Source: an uncultured Candidatus Peribacteria bacterium (GTDB lineage Bacteria > Patescibacteriota > Gracilibacteria > Absconditabacterales > Absconditicoccaceae). From it: a DNA stretch of 64,000 bases. The notes below the pieces were generated by a model that saw only the letters and a program-made list of their open reading frames with translations, was not told the DNA's origin and made no database searches. A program made the translations under genes and the position numbers. Below, piece by piece: positions 3,661 to 19,237 of this stretch. Within the stretch, counting starts at the first letter, position 1. Each line of letters opens with the position of its first letter. Location of the stretch: the NCBI GenBank assembly GCA_964422855.1, contig CAYRCS010000001.1, positions 4,957 through 68,956 of the forward strand, given 5' to 3'.

Positions 3661-5148
3661 ATGAGAGAACTCAAGATAAGTAAGTCTATCACCAATCGCG
3701 ATAGTGTAGCAATCGAAAAATACCTACAAGAAATAGGTAAGATCGATCTACTGTCCACTGAAGAAGAAGTAGAACTTGCTCGTAAGGTCCAAGCTGGAGA
3801 TACAATGGCTTTGGAAAAATTAGTCAAAGCCAATCTTCGTTTTGTCGTATCAGTAGCAAAACAATATCAAAATAATGGTATACCACTATCTGATCTCATC
3901 AATGAAGGCAATCTATGACTGACGAAAGCCGCACAGAAATTTGATGAGACTCGTGGATTTAAATTTATTACTTATGCTGTATGGCGAATACGTCAGAGCA
4001 TACTACAAGCTCTTGCTGATTATGGTCGTATGGTGCGTCTCCCACTCAACAAAATATGATCTATCTCCAAAGTAAATCAAGCTTCTTCTTCTCTAGAACA
4101 GAAATATGAACGCGAACCAACTCCTGAAGAAATTGCAGAGATGCTGGAGATGCCACTAGACGATGTTCAGGATACTATATATATAAATAGATGACGTCAT
4201 ACATCACTGGATGCACCAGTTGGTGGCGATGAAGACTCCACTTTTTCTCTCAATGATACAAATCTCGATCCGGATACACAAGCAGTCAAAGACGATCTTT
4301 TTGTTGCGATGGCAAACGATAGTTTCAACAAATCTATGCAACTTATTGTTAATCATGTATTTGCGAAAAAACCACAAACCAAAGATATCTTGTTTAGATT
4401 TTTTGGTATAGGACAAGAACATCCAGAAGGACTAGAAGATATTGGACTTAGATACAATCTTACTCGTGAAAGAGTAAGGCAGATAAAGGACGCATGATTA
4501 GCCAGACTCAAACCCATCTTGGCTCAAGGCAATATAGAAGATGTAGTGGAGAAACTTCGTCAACAAAGTGTCTTGCCTATACAGAAGAAAAAAACACAAG
4601 CTAGTATAGCACATACCTTTTCTATGGAGAAACCTCCAACAAAACGCGTGACTCCTCATACCAGTAAAAACAATAATGACATAGGTATATCATCTATACC
4701 AGACTCATGGCCTACAACGACATCTATCAACAATAATAATACAGCAATACATTCTATAGAAAATGAATCTAGGACACCATCTGCTGATGCTATATCTATA
4801 GATGAATATATGCAAATATATGCAAAAGATCTCCAAGAGATAGAGTTTGCCCTCCAAACCATGACTAAAAAACCTGGTAAACTAGCCCTAGATTATATGT
4901 ATGTTATACAGTGCGGCTTTCATATAGATAGTTATATATTGTTTTGGTATCTATGGAAAAAATATGATGATATACACACACTCAATACGATAGATAGAAA
5001 CTATCTGACAATGTTTATGAGTCTCCATGGCAAAATGCCAGATATCAAAAATATGTATGGTCAGGAAGAAGCACATCATGTTTACAGAACAATAGAAAAA
5101 GCTTTTGCCGTGATAGACAAAGGACTTAAGAATAGTGAGGATAAGTAA
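3661..5148 (+). CDS. rpoD: RNA polymerase sigma-70 family factor (regions 2-4) with a roughly 215-aa C-terminal extension
   Basis: Track ORFs 3661..3918, 4309..4497 and 4519..5148 share one frame and are separated only by TGAs. Motifs: [53 protein letters not shown]. There is no TAA or TAG before 5146. Confidence 0.85.
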
Positions 5149-11105: not shown

Positions 11106-12203
11106 TTATCTATAAAAGAATTTCTTGTACAGCATCTCAATTGCGAGCCTTATGCTGTTACTATTTTTTTGTCATTTTTGTAAACTATAGTCTGTATAAT
11201 GAATATGTACCGGAATTTCAAGATATGACATACGATGTGCTACTATCTGCTCGTTGAGCTCATTGGCATAGTGCATGCCATCTGACTGCAGTTTAAATTT
11301 TTGGATGGCGACTAGAGACATCACTCTATAACCATTGTGTGGATCGGATACCTTATTGCTATACATCAAACGGACGACGACTTTTGCTATACCAAGTATA
11401 TATTTTCTGAGTGTGGGAATCTGATATGCAGCAGCTCCAGCTATAAATCTAGACCCTAGGTAGAGATCAACTTTTTGCTCCTGGATGGCCTTGGTAAAGT
11501 TTTTCATATCTGCTATATCCATCTGCCCATCAGCATCAAATCATACTACTCGCTTGATCTGGAGATCGGCGCCGTGTTGTTGCAAGAATGCAAAACCTGT
11601 CTTGGTTGCTGCTCATGCTCCTCTATCTCATCTATTGATAGCATGTCTGACATCTATGATCAATGCGTCAGGATATGTTGTTTGTTTCTCTTGGATGACA
11701 TCTTGTGTGGTATCTGTAGATCCATCATTTACGATGAGTATCTTGTTATATCATGCTTTGATTATATTTTCAATCACTGTACCAATCGTTTGTGCTTCGT
11801 TGTATGCTCTGATCAAGAATACAAAATCATCTTCGGGTTTGTTATTTTTATATTGTTCAATCTGCATATGATGCGTAGATCGAGATTGATCGACAGCCTG
11901 TTGTGTCACAAGCTTACTGAGCTGAGTGATATCTTTGGTGAGTCTGTTGTACAGGTCGATGAAAAAATAGAACAATAATATGATAGACGCATAGACGATC
12001 AGATCAGCACCTCTCGTTACACCAAAATATGTACCAAATTTATTGAGTAAGTCGATATCATATCCAAAAAGTGCGAGCACTGCTCCTCCACCGATAAATA
12101 CGAGAAAATGCAGCAAGGTAGCTTTTTTGCGTTTGTATAGGTCGATACCAAACAGCACAAATATAAGTGCTGCGACGATGATGATAAACTGGAGTAATGA
12201 CAT
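11106..12203 (-). CDS. family 2 glycosyltransferase fused to an N-terminal DUF2304-like membrane domain
   Basis: Track ORFs 11751..12203 and 11172..11522 share a frame. The N-terminus is a four-helix hydrophobic region (MSLLQFIIIVAALIFVLFGIDLYKRKK...GVTRGADLIVY). It is followed by GT-A motifs FVFLIRAYNEAQTIG, LIVNDGSTD and FDADGQ. Confidence 0.8.
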
Positions 12204-12209
12204 CGCAAT

Positions 12210-13484
12210 CTATAGACTATAAATCTTTCCCTGACGTTCGTCAGTTTTTACTACTTCGTATTCTGTATCAGATTTAATTTTGATGATATGTGTGATGCCT
12301 TTTTGTTGGGCGTATTTGATTTGCTTGAGGAAGTCTTCGGCTAGAGGAAACAACTCTATGACTTTGTTGTCTGCGTGATACTGTGCAATAATTTTTTGTG
12401 CAGTGTCTGCAAACTTGCCATCATTAACGATCAGATATGTCTGTGTTGGAGATACAAATGTTTTTTCTAGATCGTAATCTTCGAGCAAAATACTGAGCAA
12501 TCTACTGAGCCCAATACTTCATCCAACTCCTGAGAAGCTCTGCTTCTTGTCTATGAAGTCTGTAAGATTTGCATATGCTCATCCTGAACAGATACTGCCC
12601 AATTCTATCTTACCATCGACAAATGTTTCGAATACTGTGCCGGTGTAATAATCCAATCCACGCACGATAAATGGATCTATGATATAACTCACCCCTGCTG
12701 CGTCCAATTTTTGCGTCACTGCTTCAAGCTTATCCAAAGCATCTTGTGCTGCTGGTGACGATGCAGTAAATGATCTGAGTTGTGCTATATCTTTACCACA
12801 CAATACATTCAATATATCTATATGTGAGTCTTTTATCCCTAATTTGGTAAGTTCTTCTGCAAATTTTTCTTTGGCAATTTTGTGGTATCCATCAAATAGT
12901 TTTAATAGCGCATCGCGATCTTTGCCTGCTATAAGCTCTATCAATGCATAGGTAAATAATTTGTTGTTCACATGAAATTGTGATTTGATTTCCAATCCTA
13001 TCTGAGATCCTACAAACTCTATCGCTTTGGCAAGAGCGATGATACAGTCTGCATCATATATATCGTTGTATCATTTATCTTCTTTGCTCTTCCAGATCAC
13101 ATCGATATCTGCTTGTCGAAACTCTTTGTATCTCCCTTTCTGGTTTCTTTCGCCTCTCCAGACTGGTTGGATCTGGTAACGCTTAAACGGAAACGCTAAC
13201 TCGTTTTGTCGATCAAGTGCATAACGAGCAAATGGGACAGTAAGATCGAAGTGCAATGAATAATCTTTTGCGTCTTCTGGACCTTGCGCCATGCCATAGA
13301 GACCAAATATTTGTTTGGATGATTCTTCTCATCATTTTTTGAGTATGTTTGTATTTTCTACTGCAGGTGTCCAGATATGCTGATAACCGTACTGGGCAAA
13401 AGTTTGGGCAATGGTGCCGTAGATAGCATCAAAAATCTGTTGCTGTTTGGGACTGTACTCGGGGAATCATCCTGGGCGATACAT
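12210..13484 (-). CDS. hisS: histidine--tRNA ligase
   Basis: Track ORFs 13071..13292, 12579..12995 and 12210..12500 share a frame. Motifs: [48 protein letters not shown] and SICSGG. TAG stop. Confidence 0.9.
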
Positions 13485-13508
13485 ACTCTAATACAACAAT
13501 AATAAAAT

Positions 13509-14189
13509 TTAATCTTGAATAGTCTTGATACCAAAGACTTGGACTCGATAACCGTTTTTGTATGCCAATCACATATCTCTGAAGTTGGGATTAACGATAT
13601 TGTCTTTGTGAGCTGGGCTTTCCATCCATGCCTTCATCACCGCATCAGTATCGGTATATCACTTGGCAAGATTTTCACCTGCGAGAGCAAATGGATATCC
13701 TGAGGTTTTGATCCTATCTTCAAAGGTAACTCCTCCCTCAGTCGTATGACTAAAATCATCTGTTCTATCTATATATCCTACATAGAGTTCTGCTATCAAA
13801 CTCAACGTATCGTCTAGTTTGAGTGGCTGGAGATCGAGGTCTAGTCTAATTTCATTGGTCTTGTTTAATACTCCTTCTCTGATCTGTTGATAGAGCAATC
13901 ATTTGACACTGGTTTGATTGTTTTCTAGATTCTTTTTGAGATCAACAACGTGATCATTGACTGCATCAAGGATAGATTCAAATTTGGATGTATCAGATGC
14001 CTTGGATGATGCGGCTATGATCTTACTCTTGATACCTTCTCGTGTTTTGACTTGCTGTGCATAGGTCTGACTTGCCATAGATTGGTCTATTTTTTCTATA
14101 AGCGAATCTCGTTGCGATGCAGCGCTTGTGCTAGCAAATGTAAGGGTCGATGCTAGCACCAAAAGAATAAATTTTTTCATCAAACTCAT
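13509..14189 (-). CDS. secreted CAP/SCP-domain protein
   Basis: Track ORFs 13899..14189 and 13659..13898 are joined by a TGA. Signal peptide MKKFILLVLASTLTFAS. The C-terminal sequence GENLAK-G-YTDTDAVMKAWMESPAHKDNIVNPNFRDMG is typical of the CAP (YkwD-like) domain. Confidence 0.75.
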
Positions 14190-14200
14190 ATAGTAAAAGA

Positions 14201-16387
14201 CTACGACTGTAGAGCTTCTATGACTTGTGGGATAAACTCTTCCAATGGGATGCTCAAATATTTTTCACAATTTCTGACATGTTCTCTATCTACTCCTGCT
14301 GCGAATTTTTTATCTTTGATCTTTTTCATCACTGACTTTACTTCCATACCTGCAAATCATTCTGGTCTCATGAGTGAATACGCATAGAGCAATCACGACA
14401 ATTCATCGATAGCCGATAGATATTTTCTGATAAGCAAATCTACTGGCACTCCTGTCTTCTCTGTATAATGTGAACGGATATCATCGATCAATGTCTGTGG
14501 CAAATTAATTTCCGATACGATAGCATGGAATTCGTCTCCCAAATGTTTGTCAGCGTTTTTGCCGATATGATCTCGATCCACGTCATGGAGCAATCAAGCA
14601 ATATACCAAGGATCTTCATCTTGTCATAACTTCTTGGCAAAATATTGCATCACTTTACCTACTTGTTCACAATGCTTGCGTGTGTCGGTCAGATATTTGT
14701 CAGCAAGTTTTTGTGAGTCGGATATAGATGGGACATTTTCATATTTTACTGCTGGTGTGTTTTGTTGTGGAGTAGTTTTTGGAGTCATTGTTGGAGCGCT
14801 TTCTTCGTGAGTTTGTTCATGGATAGGTTTCATGAGTGGAAATAGTATAGAGTCTCTCAAGTTATCTTGTTGTGTCAGTAATGTTACCATTCTATCAATA
14901 CCCATTCATCGACCGGACTGCCCAGGCATACCGTACTCCATAGCGACAATAAAATCATCATCACCTTTGGTTGCTTCATCATCACCTTTTGCTACAGCAT
15001 CTGCTTGATCATCAAAATTTTGTTGCTGTAAAATTGGATCAACAAGTTCTGAATATGCTTTGATAACTTCCCAACCATTAACCACTACCTGGAACTGTTC
15101 TACAATATTGGCATCTGCATCACTTACACGAGCAAGCGGTTGCATAGTCTTAGGATAATTAGAGATGAACAGTGGACCCAATAATTGGGGTCTTGTTACT
15201 TTTTTGTATAGGTAATCTATCATCGTTGCTACTGTCTGCTCCTCTAATCCTACTCGATTATGCCCTTTTGCTTTGATATCTGATTTGAGTTTTGCTTCAT
15301 CACCTGGTTTGTATAAAGATACATCAATACCGCTATCATTTTTTACCTGTTGGATATAATCTATCCTCTTCCATGGGGTTGTGAAATCTACTTGTTTGAT
15401 ATTTCATTCTTTATCTTTTACTTGGATTTTTCTGTCTAATTTGAGTGTATCAAAAACATAATCAAACATCTGTTCCGTAAATGCCATATTTTTTTTGTAG
15501 TCCCAATATACCGCATAATGCTCTATTGATGTAAATTCTTGCAAATGCGATGGGTCTGATCATTCATTTCTGAAGTTTTTTGCTATTTCAAAAACCTTTT
15601 CTAGTCATCAGACTGTTGCAGTCTTAAGCGCAATTTCTGGCGCAATTCTCAAAAATACATCAATATCATAATCATTGTGGTGTGTTACAAAAGGCCTTGC
15701 CGCCGCCCCACTTGCTGCATTCCCTAGTATTGGAGTCTCTAATTCAGTAAATCATTGTGATCGATAAAATTCTCTAAGAGTTTTGACAAATTTGCTTCTA
15801 AATTGCATCCTCTGCAAACTATCTGTATTGAATATCATGTCTAGATATCTCTGGCGATAGGCATTTTCTGCATCCTCTCCAATACCATGCCATTTATCGC
15901 CCAATGGTCTGATAGCTTTGGTTAAGAATGTAAACTCTGGAGCAAAAATAGTCAATTCCCCCTTGTGGGTCTTAAATACTTCTCATTTTACACCTATAAA
16001 ATCACCCACATCAACATATTTTTCAAAAAATTTATATGCTGACATATCTCCTATATTTTTTTGTATTCCTTGATCTTGGGTATGTATCGCGCAGTTATCT
16101 TTATGAAGCATTATTTGTATAATACCTGTTTCATCTTGCAAACGCACAAATGTGAGTGCTCCATGTGTTCTGGTAAGCATAACCCTTCCAGCAGTAGATA
16201 TCTGGATATATGGAGATGGCACTAGTACTTCAGAGTCTCTTAATTCTTTGTTAGTATCAGCAAAATCAATAACTTGTTGTATTGTATGTATCTTGTCATA
16301 CTGTGCAGCATAAGGATTGATTCAAAGTTCTCTCAACTGCTGGACCTTGGCTATACGAACATCACGTTCTGATACTTTTTGGTTCAT
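14201..16387 (-). CDS. lysS: lysine--tRNA ligase (class II) fused to a C-terminal HD-domain hydrolase module
   Basis: Six track ORFs share one frame (15983..16222, 15752..15955, 14906..15223, 14624..14905, 14393..14593). I checked codon by codon that 15224..15751 has no TAA or TAG. LysRS motifs: [48 protein letters not shown] Pro/Thr-rich linker follows, then the HD module HCEQVGKV...LLHDVDRDH...SAIDEL. Confidence 0.9.
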
Positions 16388-16457
16388 GCGAAAAATATAC
16401 TATAAAATATCGGTTTATATCTAGCAAAAATAGTCGCTTTTGCAAGCGGAAGCAAGC

Positions 16458-17645
16458 TTATCTTGTATAGATGGTCTTAGCCGCAAAAGTTGTCCCTACC
16501 GTATATGCGTACTTCACAAAATCGGTATCCAATCAGAGCTTCTGCTGCCATATCTTGGCGTATGGTACTGCAGTAGCACTAATAGTGATATATGGAGACA
16601 CTTGATTATCGAGCTCATCAGCAACGTATAGTGGATTTTTGTTTGGACTAATCTGTATGGATCGATCTATGATAGATATATCATCTTCGGTCAATTGAAC
16701 CCATCCATCATATATATCTATTGGTACGTACATATCGGTATATGGTGCACCAACAGCTATTCCTGAACAGATAAATCATTGATCGGCATCACAAGCCCAT
16801 GTATCGATATCTCCATCGGCAACGCCACCTGCTTCATTTGTTTGATTGTGCTCACTACCTGCGTCTATTCCCTTGAGTCTCAATATCTCGATGATAAAAT
16901 GCTGTTCTGGCTCACTAATGATATTATCCCCATTTCGATCTCCGCTTGCAATCATACGACGTCTGATGTACAGTCTTTGTGTATCATTATTGTTGATAAG
17001 ATATATTTCCTGTATGCCAGTATCTGTTATGGCTGATGGCCCGTCTCTGGTCCATGTTTCGTTACCAAATTCTATTATTCATCATGTCCCATCTGCATCT
17101 CCTTGGACATCCCAGGATTGTCTAGCATATTGACCGTAGGATTGATAATACGTCCCACTGGTGGGAAATAAGTGTGCTATATTTTCTATTTGGTTCACAC
17201 ATCATTCGCCGTTGAGCATACCATTGGATTGGATAACATAATCGGGATCCAATGGACTAAGCTGATCATCAGTCGAACTACAATAATAGAGTCCATGTCT
17301 ATCGTATGATCACAATGTTGGGATACTATTATAATTACCGTATGCAGTAAATACTCCACATATACCATCTTCTCAGACATCTCGTTGAGATCACAGAGAC
17401 TGATCACATCCAACCATAGATCTAGCTCGATATTCTTCGTAATCGATCGTATAATCTTGGCTAAATTGGTTTATCTTCTCATATAAATAATGCATCCCTT
17501 GGATAACTGATTGTCTGGCTTGGATACGATTTTTGACGATATACGCGTTTTGAAGCAATGAGAAAACTATCGCAAGTAATATCCCCAATGCGGCGACTAC
17601 TACTACCATCTCCAATAGACTATATCCTCTCGTATGTTTCATCAA
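16458..17645 (-). CDS. type IV pilin-like protein (prepilin N-terminal methylation motif), 395 aa
   Basis: The N-terminus MMKHTRGYSLLEMVVVVAALGILLAIVF matches the G-[FY]-[ST]-L-x-E prepilin signature plus a hydrophobic helix. Track ORFs 17391..17645 and 16533..16733 share a frame and are joined through many TGAs. TAA stop at 16458. Confidence 0.75.
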
Positions 17646-17653
17646 CTCCTAGC

Positions 17654-19237
17654 TTAGGCGCTGATGTAAATGAGTACTGCCTCCTTGATCTGTTGCAACA
17701 CTGATCTCGTAGATCCTGATGCTCTATCTATCTTGGATTCCAATGTAGTGATCGCTCCTGACAATATTTGTTTGAACCTAGTTGCATCTCATGACTTGTT
17801 TGCAAGTTTTTGCACAACAGATACAAATGGATTGCTGGACTCTATAACTTCTTCTTCTGGGATTGTAGGTTCGAGAGAAATACCCATAGCCTGGAGCATG
17901 GCTGCTGCGCTTGCCTGGATAGTTTTGGTTACTGCTTTGTCATATAATAATTGTGCGTTAGTTATGATACTTTGCTTGAGTGCGTCTTTTTCTGCTCATG
18001 CTGAGAGTTTATCATAACTCGCTTTTTGCTCTTGGAGATTGGTAAGATTGTCTGTCTGTTGCCCACCCTTATCTACTCGTGCACTATATTGATCTGTAGC
18101 AAACTTCTTGAAATCTGCTTCATATGTCTGCATCCCTTCACCATACAAATCTGCCAAAGTAGTAGCTATAGCGTCTTTGATATCTGCAGCTGCGCCACTT
18201 GATGACAATGCATTTGTCCCTTTTTGGAGTTTGGATTTGACAGATCCTATGTGTGCTAATACGACTTTCATATATACATCCAAATCTGTGGTAGTGGTAG
18301 CTATAGATGTACAATTGATGGCGCCATCTTTGTAATATGCTGATTGGATATCTGCTATCTGTTTTTCTAATTCACGATACAATTGTACGTCGTACCATTG
18401 GCCGACAACATTGTCGATCGCATCATCAAAATCTAAGCCATATAATTTAGCAGTCTCATCTTGTCTGGCTTGGAGTAACTCTATGTAGCCTACGAGGTTT
18501 GTAGATCTCTTGGTTTGATTGCTTACTATAAGCTCAATCTTAGTAGCCAAAGCATCTTGTGCTACTTTTTTTTGATCATTGAGGATATCGAAAATATTAC
18601 CTTGCTGTGCCAAGTATTGTGCGTTAAATGTAGTCAATGTCTCTTGTAACTCTGCATATGATGATGCAATCTTGTCCAACTGTGTGATCTTGATATTCAT
18701 ATCTGCGAGCAATCATGAATTTTGTTTTGCATACTCCGCTACTGTTTCTTTTCTATCAAGTGCTTGATCGTTGTATGTGTTAAATAATTGCAATGTCAGC
18801 GCATTGTAAATATCACCAAAGGTATCTATCTGTGCGTTGACGCTCGCATAATCTACCGTCAAACCAAGGTTGTATTTGTCTATCATCCCTTTGAGATCAA
18901 CGTATTCACTCAATAATTGATTTCTGAGTTTACTCTTATCTGCATCCAGTGCCGTAAGCAGTGGCTTGCTATCTATAACCCCAAGACATGCTAAGCTTTT
19001 GAAATTAGGATCATTATCCACAGACAATCCTGTCGCAGTCTTGATATATCCTGAGTATGCTTTTTCTAATGCATCGAGTGCATCTTTTTTTTGCTTTTCT
19101 AATTTCTGCGAAGTAGTAAGCTGCGGTGTAGTGGTTCCTGTGCTTGTAGATCCCGTATTGGCACTAGCCATACCTACAACAGTAAGTGATAGACCCAATC
19201 AGAGACACATCAGTTTGATAATACCCTTGTTTTGCAT
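17654..19237 (-). CDS. secreted helical protein of unknown function (527 aa)
   Basis: Track ORFs 18713..19198 and 17996..18712 are joined by TGAs. ATG at 19237 gives the signal-like N-terminus MQNKGIIKLMCLGLGLSLTVVGMASA. Stops 8 nt upstream of the pilin start, which has an AGGAG Shine-Dalgarno sequence. Confidence 0.65.

What the first reader, a model, noticed from the sequence alone, without database searches (positions are those of the whole stretch)
14201..16387. Lysyl-tRNA synthetase is fused to a C-terminal HD-domain hydrolase
After the canonical class II LysRS C-terminus (GIDRMV..ILFPLMK) the frame continues through a roughly 45-aa Pro/Thr/Gln-rich linker. It then enters a roughly 165-aa HD module (H...LLHDVDRDH...D) before the TAG at 14201. 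Only TGAs interrupt the frame.

Established knowledge: class II LysRS enzymes are major producers of diadenosine tetraphosphate (Ap4A), and some HD-domain proteins (the YqeK family) hydrolyse Ap4A.

Inference: the fusion could couple synthesis and removal of Ap4A or related dinucleotides, or act on another nucleotide by-product. I do not know of a described LysRS-HD fusion.
Basis: partly seen in the sequence, partly recalled or inferred. Interest (0 to 1): 0.65.

Follow-up and report, generated by a model that had tools for sequence, protein, structure and literature searches.

The report
Lysyl-tRNA synthetase with tethered HD phosphohydrolase
In this recoded (TGA = glycine) candidate-phyla-radiation bacterium, the enzyme that charges tRNA with lysine carries a catalytically intact metal-dependent phosphohydrolase on a flexible tail. 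The same pairing has arisen at least three times in bacteria and has not been described, and it points to clean-up of nucleotide by-products such as Ap4A at the place they are made.

Summary
Window 14201-16387 (- strand) is one 728-aa ORF read with genetic code 25 (12 in-frame TGA codons, mostly at conserved Gly columns). It has three parts:
- a complete class II LysRS (residues 1-521);
- a disordered Pro/Thr/Gln linker (522-547);
- a 181-aa HD domain (548-728) that passes Pfam HD and HDIG cut-offs.

The junction holds no TGA and is open even under the standard code.

The fusion is not an artefact. All 120 best database hits carry it, and standard-code Peribacteria and a Microgenomates MAG have the same single ORF. 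WWE3 has the two genes adjacent. A Chitinophagales lineage has the reverse order, HD-LysRS. Relatives also insert NUDIX, HAD or DUF2000 domains between LysRS and HD.

The HD belongs to a large uncharacterised family (about 3,000 clusters at 50% identity) and is not YqeK. It does keep the six-residue H..HD..H..H..D motif that is diagnostic of a two-metal site.

The best reading is a tethered nucleotide pyrophosphatase that removes LysRS by-products (Ap4A/Np4N). This parallels the NadD-YqeK fusion of mycoplasmas. The substrate is inferred, not shown. I found no paper describing the fusion. I rate it a new variant of a known kind, of moderate to high interest.

The parts
14201..16387 (-). Whole lysS-HD gene: 728 codons plus a TAG stop, read with code 25 (TGA = Gly)
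   Evidence: The 12 TGA codons are at 16322, 15983, 15752, 15608, 15605, 15560, 15404, 14906, 14624, 14594, 14393 and 14357 (low coordinates). Nine sit at columns that are Gly in every aligned standard-code homolog, and the other three are mixed. P0121 is a 98% identical 728-aa protein from another assembly.
15929..16198 (-). OB-fold anticodon-binding domain of class II LysRS (residues 64-153)
   Evidence: PF01336, 53 bits. AF2 pLDDT above 90.
14831..15868 (-). Class II catalytic core (residues 174-519), including motif 2 FRNE (15563-15574) and the C-terminal GIDRMV...FPLMK
   Evidence: PF00152, 245 bits. NF001756 516 bits and TIGR00499 463 bits, both above their cut-offs. Catalytic motifs are invariant in 83 fusion proteins.
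14747..14824 (-). Flexible linker [26 protein letters not shown] (residues 522-547). In relatives this is where NUDIX, HAD, DUF2000 and DUF559 domains are inserted.
   Evidence: AF2 pLDDT below 50 for residues 521-543, and pTM 0.65 for the whole chain. No TGA or other stop in the linker. Gap lengths of 16-462 aa between LysRS and HD in relatives.
14204..14746 (-). HD-domain phosphohydrolase module (residues 548-728), all-helical
   Evidence: PF01966 31.4 bits (cut-off 22) and TIGR00277 29.7 bits (cut-off 27.6). AF2 model of an 82% identical proxy: pLDDT 98, pTM 0.93. Family of 3,067 clusters (at 50% identity) at E<=1e-10.
14402..14674 (-). Predicted two-metal site: H572 (14672-14674), H601-D602 (14582-14587), D604, H615 (14543-14545), H640 (14468-14470), D661-E662 (14402-14407)
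   Evidence: Invariant in 47 family members and in 83 fusions. The pattern H..HD..H..H..D is the motif a review calls diagnostic of a dinuclear HD site (PMC8177086). That these residues bind metal is inferred from the motif; it was not tested.
14285..14326 (-). Family signature [14 protein letters not shown] (residues 688-701), a conserved basic patch
   Evidence: K688, K691, K693, F695, A696 and R701 are invariant in the fusions. A role in phosphate binding is inference.

Best explanation
The gene encodes a bifunctional enzyme: a normal class II lysyl-tRNA synthetase with a catalytically active, two-metal HD phosphohydrolase tethered to each subunit by a disordered linker of about 26 aa.

Shown here:
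- Both modules are intact and under purifying selection.
- The tether is flexible.
- This HD family has been joined to LysRS repeatedly and in both orders.

Inferred:
- LysRS makes lysyl-AMP. When tRNA is scarce, the adenylate is attacked by ATP or another NTP and gives Ap4A/Ap4N (and Ap3A with ADP).
- The tethered HD cleaves the polyphosphate bridge of these dinucleotides, or of Np4 caps that LysRS can add to RNA in vitro.
- This keeps a toxic or signalling by-product low in a cell with a very small genome.
- It parallels the NadD-YqeK fusion, where an HD diphosphatase removes erroneous dinucleotides made by the adenylyltransferase it is fused to.
- Relatives with extra NUDIX and/or HAD domains in the linker would extend the same nucleotide clean-up.
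For: 1. Real single ORF with both domains above curated cut-offs.
2. Conservation: 120 of the 120 best hits carry the C-terminal HD.
3. Single ORFs without any TGA occur in standard-code Peribacteria (L007-L013) and a Microgenomates MAG (L037). In WWE3 (L020) the two genes are adjacent but separate.
4. Independent fusion in the reverse order: HD-LysRS in a Chitinophagales MAG (L089, 716 aa) and in the P0324 cluster (8 members, several contigs).
5. The HDs of L037 and L089 are closest to standalone HDs, so there were at least three separate fusion events.
6. H572, H601, D602, H615, H640 and D661 are invariant in 83 fusions. This is the dinuclear motif shared with YqeK (PMC8177086).
7. The best sequence-profile hit in the PDB is the YqeK Ap4A hydrolase 8jja, E=0.003, over the N-terminal region only.
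8. NUDIX is inserted into the same protein in several lineages, and one protein is LysRS-HAD-NUDIX-HD. Nudix enzymes are the other known Ap4A hydrolases (PMC13627108).
9. The module is acidic (pI 5.8; family median 5.5), unlike RNA-binding appendages.
10. Precedent: NadD-YqeK (PMC9426524).
11. LysRS is a main Ap4A producer (PMC13627108) and caps RNA with Np4 in vitro (PMC10148737).
Against: - The substrate is untested.
- The module fails the YqeK family model (12.5 bits against a cut-off of 70).
- It has no close structural neighbour. The best TM-score is 0.56, and all Foldseek E-values are 0.016 or higher.
- The hits are spread over functionally different HD enzymes: GlyRS-beta HD, PgpH, alarmone hydrolases, YqeK.
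- The Arg just upstream of the first His, said to be conserved in HD phosphohydrolases (PMC8177086), is not invariant here.
- The same six-residue motif also occurs in HD oxygenases.
- Standalone members in other phyla show no conserved neighbour that points to nucleotide metabolism.
- I could not test whether genomes with this HD lack apaH/yqeK.
- DUF2000 and DUF559 inserts do not fit a nucleotide theme in any obvious way.
Confidence: 0.45

Rival explanations
1. The HD acts on tRNA rather than on free nucleotides. It would be a phosphoesterase that heals damaged tRNA-Lys ends (2',3'-cyclic phosphate or 3'-phosphate removal), like the HD domain of bacterial CCA-adding enzymes, so that LysRS can recharge repaired tRNA.
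For: - The top Foldseek hit by E-value is the HD domain of bacterial GlyRS beta, including the tRNA complex 7yse. That domain approaches the acceptor arm (PMC8464048).
- Some relatives insert DUF2000 between LysRS and HD. From memory this domain is related to peptidyl-tRNA hydrolase 2; I did not verify that here.
- A trigger factor-HD protein, P0347, hints at a translation context.
Against: - The module is acidic (pI 5.8) and sits on a floppy tether with no confident docking (pTM 0.65).
- The GlyRS-beta match is weak (TM 0.48-0.56), and that domain has lost its HD dyad whereas this one keeps every ligand.
- NUDIX and HAD co-fusions fit small-molecule chemistry better.
- P0347 is a single-member cluster and may be a chimera.
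Confidence: 0.15
2. The HD is a second-messenger hydrolase ((p)ppGpp/pppApp small alarmone hydrolase, or a c-di-AMP phosphodiesterase) placed on LysRS to link signalling to charging status.
For: Foldseek hits of the same weak strength to PgpH (TM 0.54-0.56) and to small alarmone hydrolases RelH/7qoe (TM 0.52-0.53). Weak HD_4 and HDOD profile hits.
Against: - HD_4 (the RelA/SpoT type) scores E=0.17, far below its cut-off.
- Phosphodiesterase-type HDs use H..HD..H..HH..D, whereas this family has a single His at that position (PMC8177086).
- No known chemistry links these messengers specifically to LysRS, yet the fusion is specific to LysRS in every lineage found.
Confidence: 0.1
3. The HD hydrolyses another product of the activation step, either inorganic pyrophosphate or nucleoside tri/diphosphates (pulling amino-acid activation) or misactivated aminoacyl-adenylates (proofreading).
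For: - PPi is the co-product of lysyl-AMP formation (established knowledge).
- The HAD insert in relatives is most similar, well below cut-off, to phosphoglycolate phosphatase and pyrophosphatase PpaX (55-58 bits).
- The HD enzyme YpgQ, a nucleotide pyrophosphohydrolase, appears among the fold hits.
Against: - No HD-type inorganic pyrophosphatase is listed in the superfamily review.
- All aaRS make PPi, yet only LysRS is the partner.
- YpgQ-type enzymes are mononuclear, while this family has the dinuclear motif.
Confidence: 0.12
4. The HD is a non-catalytic structural or regulatory appendage (as in GlyRS beta), or the apparent fusion is an assembly or annotation artefact.
For: A degenerate, non-catalytic HD domain exists in bacterial GlyRS beta (PMC8464048).
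Against: - All six metal ligands and the basic signature are invariant across 83 fusions at about 55% mean identity.
- The ORF is continuous under either code at the junction.
- The fusion recurs in well over 100 clusters at 90% identity from independent assemblies, and in standard-code genomes.
Confidence: 0.03

Closest known systems
NadD-YqeK fusion of mycoplasmas (JCVI-Syn3A JCVISYN3A_0380; PMC9426524)
   Same: An adenylyl-transferring enzyme is covalently joined to an HD diphosphatase, in organisms with very small genomes. The HD removes dinucleotide side products of its partner. In related lineages the two genes are also found as neighbours rather than fused.
   Different: The partner is an aminoacyl-tRNA synthetase, not NadD. 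The HD belongs to a different, uncharacterised subfamily (TIGR00488 not met). No biochemistry exists for it.
YqeK (COG1713) symmetrical Ap4A hydrolase
   Same: HD superfamily, about 180-190 aa, with the extended H..HD..H..H..D motif for a two-metal site and identical spacing from the first His to the HD dyad (H21/H50/D51 in both YqeK and the proxy P0003). Best sequence-profile match in the PDB.
   Different: Sequence similarity is limited to the first ~50 residues. The structural TM-score is about 0.45. The spacing of the later ligands differs, and the C-terminal KDKxFAAxVxR signature is specific to this family.
HD domain of the beta subunit of bacterial (alpha-beta)2 GlyRS
   Same: The only established case of an HD-fold domain built into a class II aminoacyl-tRNA synthetase, and the top Foldseek hit by E-value (7eiv_C, 7yse_C).
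   Different: The GlyRS HD has lost the His-Asp dyad (Ser-Lys in E. coli) and serves tRNA acceptor-arm binding or allostery (PMC8464048). Here all ligands are invariant and the domain is an external tethered module.
LysX (MprF-LysRS fusion of mycobacteria)
   Same: A class II LysRS fused to a second catalytic domain that uses or handles a LysRS product. The NF002821 model aligns to the LysRS part.
   Different: LysX carries a membrane lysyl-phosphatidylglycerol synthase at the N-terminus. The score here (413 bits against a cut-off of 742) shows that only the LysRS half is shared.
Bifunctional Rel/SpoT enzymes
   Same: Synthesis and HD-dependent hydrolysis of a stress nucleotide combined on one polypeptide (functional analogy only).
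   Different: Different synthetase fold and a mononuclear HD (HD_4; E=0.17 here). In LysRS, Ap4A synthesis is a side reaction.

Membership tests
Class II lysyl-tRNA synthetase (LysS) | Full-length match to the curated LysRS models above cut-off | tested here: met
   NF001756 516.5 bits (cut-off 468). TIGR00499 463 bits (cut-off 427.6). Both cover residues 7-521.
Class II lysyl-tRNA synthetase (LysS) | N-terminal OB anticodon-binding domain plus a class II core with conserved motifs 2 and 3 | tested here: met
   PF01336 at 64-153 and PF00152 at 174-519. FRNE, R499 and the other core residues are invariant in 83 homologs.
HD superfamily (PF01966 / TIGR00277 HDIG) | Profile match above the gathering score | tested here: met
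   PF01966 31.4 bits (cut-off 22) and TIGR00277 29.7 bits (cut-off 27.6) for the isolated module. 67 of 71 family members match PF01966.
HD superfamily (PF01966 / TIGR00277 HDIG) | Conserved H...HD...D metal ligands on an all-helical fold | tested here: met
   H572, H601-D602 and D661 are invariant. The AF2 model is all-helical with pLDDT 98, and every Foldseek hit I recognised is an HD-fold protein.
Dinuclear HD enzymes (H..HD..H..H..D) | Two additional invariant His between the HD dyad and the last Asp | tested here: met
   H615 and H640 are invariant. Motif as defined in PMC8177086. Actual metal content cannot be tested with these tools.
YqeK / COG1713 Ap4A hydrolase (TIGR00488) | Match to the equivalog model above cut-off | tested here: not met
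   12.5 bits against a cut-off of 70.15, E=0.098.
YqeK / COG1713 Ap4A hydrolase (TIGR00488) | Close structural similarity to solved YqeK structures | tested here: not met
   TM-score 0.45-0.47 and rmsd about 11.7 A to 8wmy, 8jja and 2o08.
YqeK / COG1713 Ap4A hydrolase (TIGR00488) | Symmetrical hydrolysis of Ap4A to 2 ADP | not testable with these tools
   Needs an enzyme assay.
RelA/SpoT-type (p)ppGpp hydrolase (HD_4, PF13328) | Profile match above the gathering score | tested here: not met
   12.1 bits against a cut-off of 27.2, E=0.17.
HD-GYP / PgpH-type phosphodiesterases | H..HD..H..HH..D motif (double His) | tested here: not met
   Single His at the corresponding position (SH640Y; consensus xSHx). 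Motif from PMC8177086.
GlyRS-beta-type non-catalytic HD | Degenerate HD dyad | tested here: not met
   The dyad H601-D602 is invariant here, whereas E. coli GlyRS beta has Ser393-Lys394 (PMC8464048).

The most novel reading that the evidence does not exclude
This uncharacterised HD family (about 3,000 clusters at 50% identity across Patescibacteria, Bacteroidota, Gemmatimonadota, Balneolales/Rhodothermales, Planctomycetota, Chloroflexota and others) is a third, so far unrecognised family of symmetrical dinucleoside-polyphosphate (Ap4A/Np4N, possibly Np4-cap) hydrolases, beside ApaH and YqeK. LysRS-HD, with its NUDIX/HAD-bearing variants, would then be a self-contained synthase-hydrolase for this alarmone, comparable in logic to bifunctional Rel enzymes.
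Probability: 0.3. Interest if true: 0.75.

Novelty: new variant of a known kind. Interest (0 to 1): 0.6.

Why it matters
Aminoacyl-tRNA synthetases are among the best-studied enzymes, and I found no description of an appended, catalytically intact phosphohydrolase on a bacterial LysRS.

The repeated, independent fusion works as a 'Rosetta stone'. It assigns a partner (LysRS) and a testable substrate class to a large HD family that currently has only generic annotation.

If the substrate is Ap4A/Np4N, it would show how at least the candidate-phyla-radiation lineages that carry the fusion dispose of this stress nucleotide and of Np4 RNA caps. Whether those lineages lack ApaH and YqeK was not tested here. 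It would also give a second example, after NadD-YqeK, of a small-genome organism attaching a clean-up hydrolase to the enzyme that makes the side product.

Practically, the public records I saw name these 700-1,180-aa proteins only 'lysine--tRNA ligase', and many are truncated by standard-code gene calling. The architecture is therefore easy to miss.

Tried and rejected
- **Hidden stop or frameshift at the junction.** Rejected: the junction is open under both codes, and independent assemblies agree.
- **YqeK membership.** Rejected on the model score and on fold comparison.
- **Sequence search of the PDB with the single module.** Nothing meaningful. The profile search gave only weak N-terminal hits.
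- **Foldseek against the PDB.** No close neighbour, so no function transfer.
- **Conserved neighbours of standalone HD genes in other phyla.** Clustering ORFs from 82 loci gave only antisense shadow ORFs, plus an endonuclease III-like gene next to the HD in 14 loci, mostly Gemmatimonadota/Longimicrobiales. Two look-ups (Algoriphagus and one JGI contig) were uninformative.
- **Neighbours in the window.** A CAP/SCP-like secreted protein, hisS, a glycosyltransferase and a pilin-like gene show no functional link.
- **NUDIX and HAD inserts.** They could not be assigned to a specific subfamily; all NCBIfam hits are far below cut-off. DUF2000 had no significant PDB hit (2gax, E=0.22).
- **Full-length AF2.** It gave no confident docking of HD on LysRS (pTM 0.65), and no coordinates are available to inspect an interface.
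- **Structure prediction with the code-25 translation of the window.** P0003 (82% identical) and P0121 (98% identical) served as proxies.
- **Promoter and terminator scan.** At chance level, with no internal signal in the linker.
- **tRNA search.** No tRNA genes in the window, so no tRNA-Gly(UCA) to support the code directly.
- **The YqeK discovery paper (PMC7186459).** Not held.
- **Phyletic complementarity with apaH/yqeK.** Could not be computed with the capped locus tools.
Full report
**1. The observation**

On the minus strand, window 14201-16387 translates as one frame of 728 codons ending in TAG, broken only by 12 TGA codons.

TGA reads as glycine here:
- The TGA codons fall inside the hallmark Gly positions of LysRS (ELGINPY, VGGLEKV, FRNEG).
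- In an alignment with five standard-code homologs, nine of the 12 columns are Gly in every homolog. The other three are mixed.
- Reading TGA as sense doubles the number of ORFs of 150 aa or more in the window, from 46 to 94.

The window therefore uses genetic code 25, as in Absconditabacteria (SR1) and Gracilibacteria. The closest named database proteins come from those groups.

Residues 8-521 match the curated lysine--tRNA ligase models above their cut-offs: NF001756 at 516 bits and TIGR00499 at 463 bits. Residues 548-728 match Pfam HD (31.4 bits, cut-off 22) and HDIG (29.7 bits, cut-off 27.6).

The junction does not depend on recoding. The code-11 ORF list already shows an open frame at 14624-14905. 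That frame spans the LysRS C-terminus, the linker and the first 40 residues of the HD module. The DNA there reads cleanly.

An independent assembly encodes a 98% identical protein of exactly 728 aa (P0121).

**2. Anatomy**

AlphaFold2 on P0121, with 83 fusion homologs as the alignment, gives confident LysRS and HD domains joined by a disordered stretch (residues 521-543, pLDDT below 50). The overall pTM is 0.65, so the HD is tethered rather than docked.

The HD module alone, modelled from the 82% identical P0003 with 71 homologs, is an all-helical domain with pLDDT 98 and pTM 0.93.

Across 83 fusion proteins with about 55% mean column identity, these HD residues are invariant: H572, H601, D602, D604, D606, K610, H615, H640, D661, E662, K688, K691, K693, F695, A696 and R701. 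The LysRS catalytic motifs are invariant as well. Both halves are therefore under selection as working enzymes.

The pattern H..HD..H..H..D is what a review of the superfamily calls diagnostic of a two-metal site. Among the phosphatases that review lists, it is described only for the Ap4A hydrolase YqeK; the HD oxygenases also have it (PMC8177086).

The module is acidic: pI 5.8, with a family median of 5.5.

**3. Distribution**

*C-terminal fusions.*
- All 120 best hits to the full-length protein carry the C-terminal HD. The names I saw are only 'lysine--tRNA ligase' or 'lysyl-tRNA synthetase'.
- Many database copies are cut at TGA by standard-code gene calling. This explains hits such as P0002, P0009 and P0011, which hold only the LysRS tail plus the HD.
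- In GTDB genomes the same single ORF, with no TGA needed, occurs in Peribacteria (L007-L013), in L010 and in a Microgenomates MAG (L037).

*Separate genes.*
- In a WWE3 genome (L020) lysS and the HD gene are adjacent but separate.
- In two code-25 genomes (L005, labelled only Patescibacteria group, and L006, Gracilibacteria) and in Peribacter UBA6535 (L016) the HD is a standalone gene.

*Reverse order and family size.*
- A profile search of 1.84 billion cluster representatives (50% identity) finds 3,067 family members at E<=1e-10.
- Among them is P0324, with the reverse order HD-LysRS. Its cluster has eight members on several contigs.
- A Chitinophagales MAG (L089) encodes the same 716-aa HD-LysRS as one standard-code ORF. 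Other Chitinophagaceae have the HD alone.

*Independent events.* Nearest-neighbour comparison shows that the fused HDs of L037 and L089 are closest to standalone HDs, not to the Absconditabacteria or Peribacteria fusions. I therefore count at least three independent fusions, in both domain orders, plus one conserved adjacency. I saw no other recurring fusion partner. The single exception is a trigger-factor chimera that may be an artefact (P0347).

**4. Variants in relatives**

The linker is a hot spot for insertions:
- LysRS-NUDIX-HD (P0129, P0135, P0173, P0198).
- NUDIX inserted after the OB domain, plus the C-terminal HD (P0164, P0171).
- LysRS-DUF2000-HD (P0179, P0203, P0373).
- LysRS-HAD-HD (P0197, P0361).
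- LysRS-HAD-NUDIX-HD (P0218, 1,178 aa).
- LysRS-DUF559-HD (P0208).

The NUDIX and HAD inserts cannot be assigned to subfamilies. Their presence still shows repeated recruitment of nucleotide and phosphate hydrolases onto this LysRS.

**5. What the HD is not**

- It fails the YqeK equivalog model (12.5 bits against 70) and the RelA/SpoT HD_4 model.
- It lacks the double His of phosphodiesterase-type HDs.
- Unlike the HD domain of GlyRS beta, it keeps its catalytic dyad.
- Foldseek against the PDB finds only distant HD folds, with TM-scores of 0.56 or less and E-values of 0.016 or more. The hits are led by GlyRS beta, PgpH, small alarmone hydrolases and YqeK.
- No member of this family has a solved structure detectable by sequence search.

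**6. Mechanism**

Established knowledge: LysRS forms lysyl-AMP. Without tRNA it transfers AMP to ATP or other NTPs to give Ap4A/Ap4N, and it can add Np4 caps to RNA in vitro (PMC13627108; PMC10148737). Ap4A is removed by ApaH, by YqeK (an HD enzyme) or by Nudix enzymes (same sources).

In mycoplasmas, an HD diphosphatase (YqeK) fused to the adenylyltransferase NadD hydrolyses erroneous dinucleotides made by its partner (PMC9426524).

By analogy, I propose that the tethered HD is a dinucleoside-polyphosphate or related nucleotide pyrophosphatase that clears LysRS side products. The grounds are the two-metal motif, the acidic surface, the NUDIX/HAD co-fusions and the partner specificity.

Shown: the fusion, its conservation, the intact active-site motif and the flexible tether. 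Inferred: the substrate and the physiological role. I put the specific Ap4A/Np4N reading at about 0.45. I put the broader statement, an active phosphohydrolase functionally coupled to LysRS, at about 0.85.

Rivals are set out in the Rival explanations section with their evidence:
- tRNA end healing;
- alarmone or cyclic-dinucleotide hydrolysis;
- PPi, NTP or adenylate hydrolysis;
- a non-catalytic appendage.

**7. Novelty**

Five full-text searches found no paper describing a LysRS-HD fusion. A current aaRS domain catalogue mentions no HD domain or hydrolase at all.

The architecture exists in public databases but is unremarked there. It combines two known kinds of domain in an undescribed way, so I rate it a new variant of a known kind. 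Interest is 0.6. It would surprise an aaRS specialist moderately, and it makes the function of a large orphan HD family directly testable.

Noticed in passing
window 14843-15870 versus L001 2913-3904: A sister genome (L001, CAZEYI010000020.1) is syntenic with window 11106-18778 at 81-87% nucleotide identity, but the LysRS catalytic core alone has no nucleotide match. At protein level the N-terminal domain is 76% identical, the core 38% and the HD 97% (P0132; the same pattern holds for P0155 and P0233). The window's own core is typical of the clade. The sister lineage therefore seems to have swapped only the class II core by recombination.
   Followed up: partly
whole window 1-64000: The window uses genetic code 25 (TGA = Gly). 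Under code 11 only 46 ORFs reach 150 aa, against 94 when TGA is sense. Many database homologs show W or a truncation where Gly is expected, because they were called with code 4 or 11. ARAGORN finds no tRNA gene in the 64 kb.
   Followed up: partly
relatives P0129, P0135, P0164, P0171, P0179, P0197, P0203, P0208, P0218, P0361, P0373 (not in the window): The LysRS-HD linker, and in some proteins the OB/core boundary, hosts inserted NUDIX, HAD, DUF2000 or DUF559 (endonuclease-like) domains. P0218 is LysRS-HAD-NUDIX-HD at 1,178 aa.
   Followed up: partly
L089 3001-5151 (Chitinophagales MAG CAZBAP010000002.1) and the P0324 cluster: The reverse domain order, HD-LysRS (715-716 aa), occurs in a standard-code Bacteroidota lineage. 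Neighbouring Chitinophagaceae have the HD as a separate gene.
   Followed up: yes
P0347 (533 aa, NCBI UPI0004B37117): Trigger factor N-terminal and PPIase domains are followed by what looks like the tail of a DUF2000 insert and then this HD module. It is a single-member cluster, so it could be a real rearrangement or an assembly chimera.
   Followed up: no
L016 about 3930-4470 (Ca. Peribacter sp. UBA6535): The HD module is 77-84% identical to the fused Peribacteria modules but is encoded as a standalone gene. It starts right where the linker would end, and there is no lysS within 4 kb. This is an apparent gene fission.
   Followed up: partly
window 16458-17648 (-) and 13509-14189 (-): The gene upstream of lysS-HD begins with a type IV pilin-like leader (RGYSLLEMVVVVAALGILLAIV). 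The downstream gene encodes a signal-peptide protein whose C-terminus looks CAP/SCP-like. hisS follows at 12210-13487. These are read by eye from the translations; no profile search was run.
   Followed up: no
14 loci incl. L022, L024, L026, L038, L043, L045, L047, L057, L060, L066, L076 (mostly Gemmatimonadota/Longimicrobiales): In these lineages the standalone HD gene lies downstream of a gene of about 216 aa that looks like endonuclease III (Nth). In most of these loci the two are directly adjacent. The link is limited to these lineages and is not seen across phyla.
   Followed up: no
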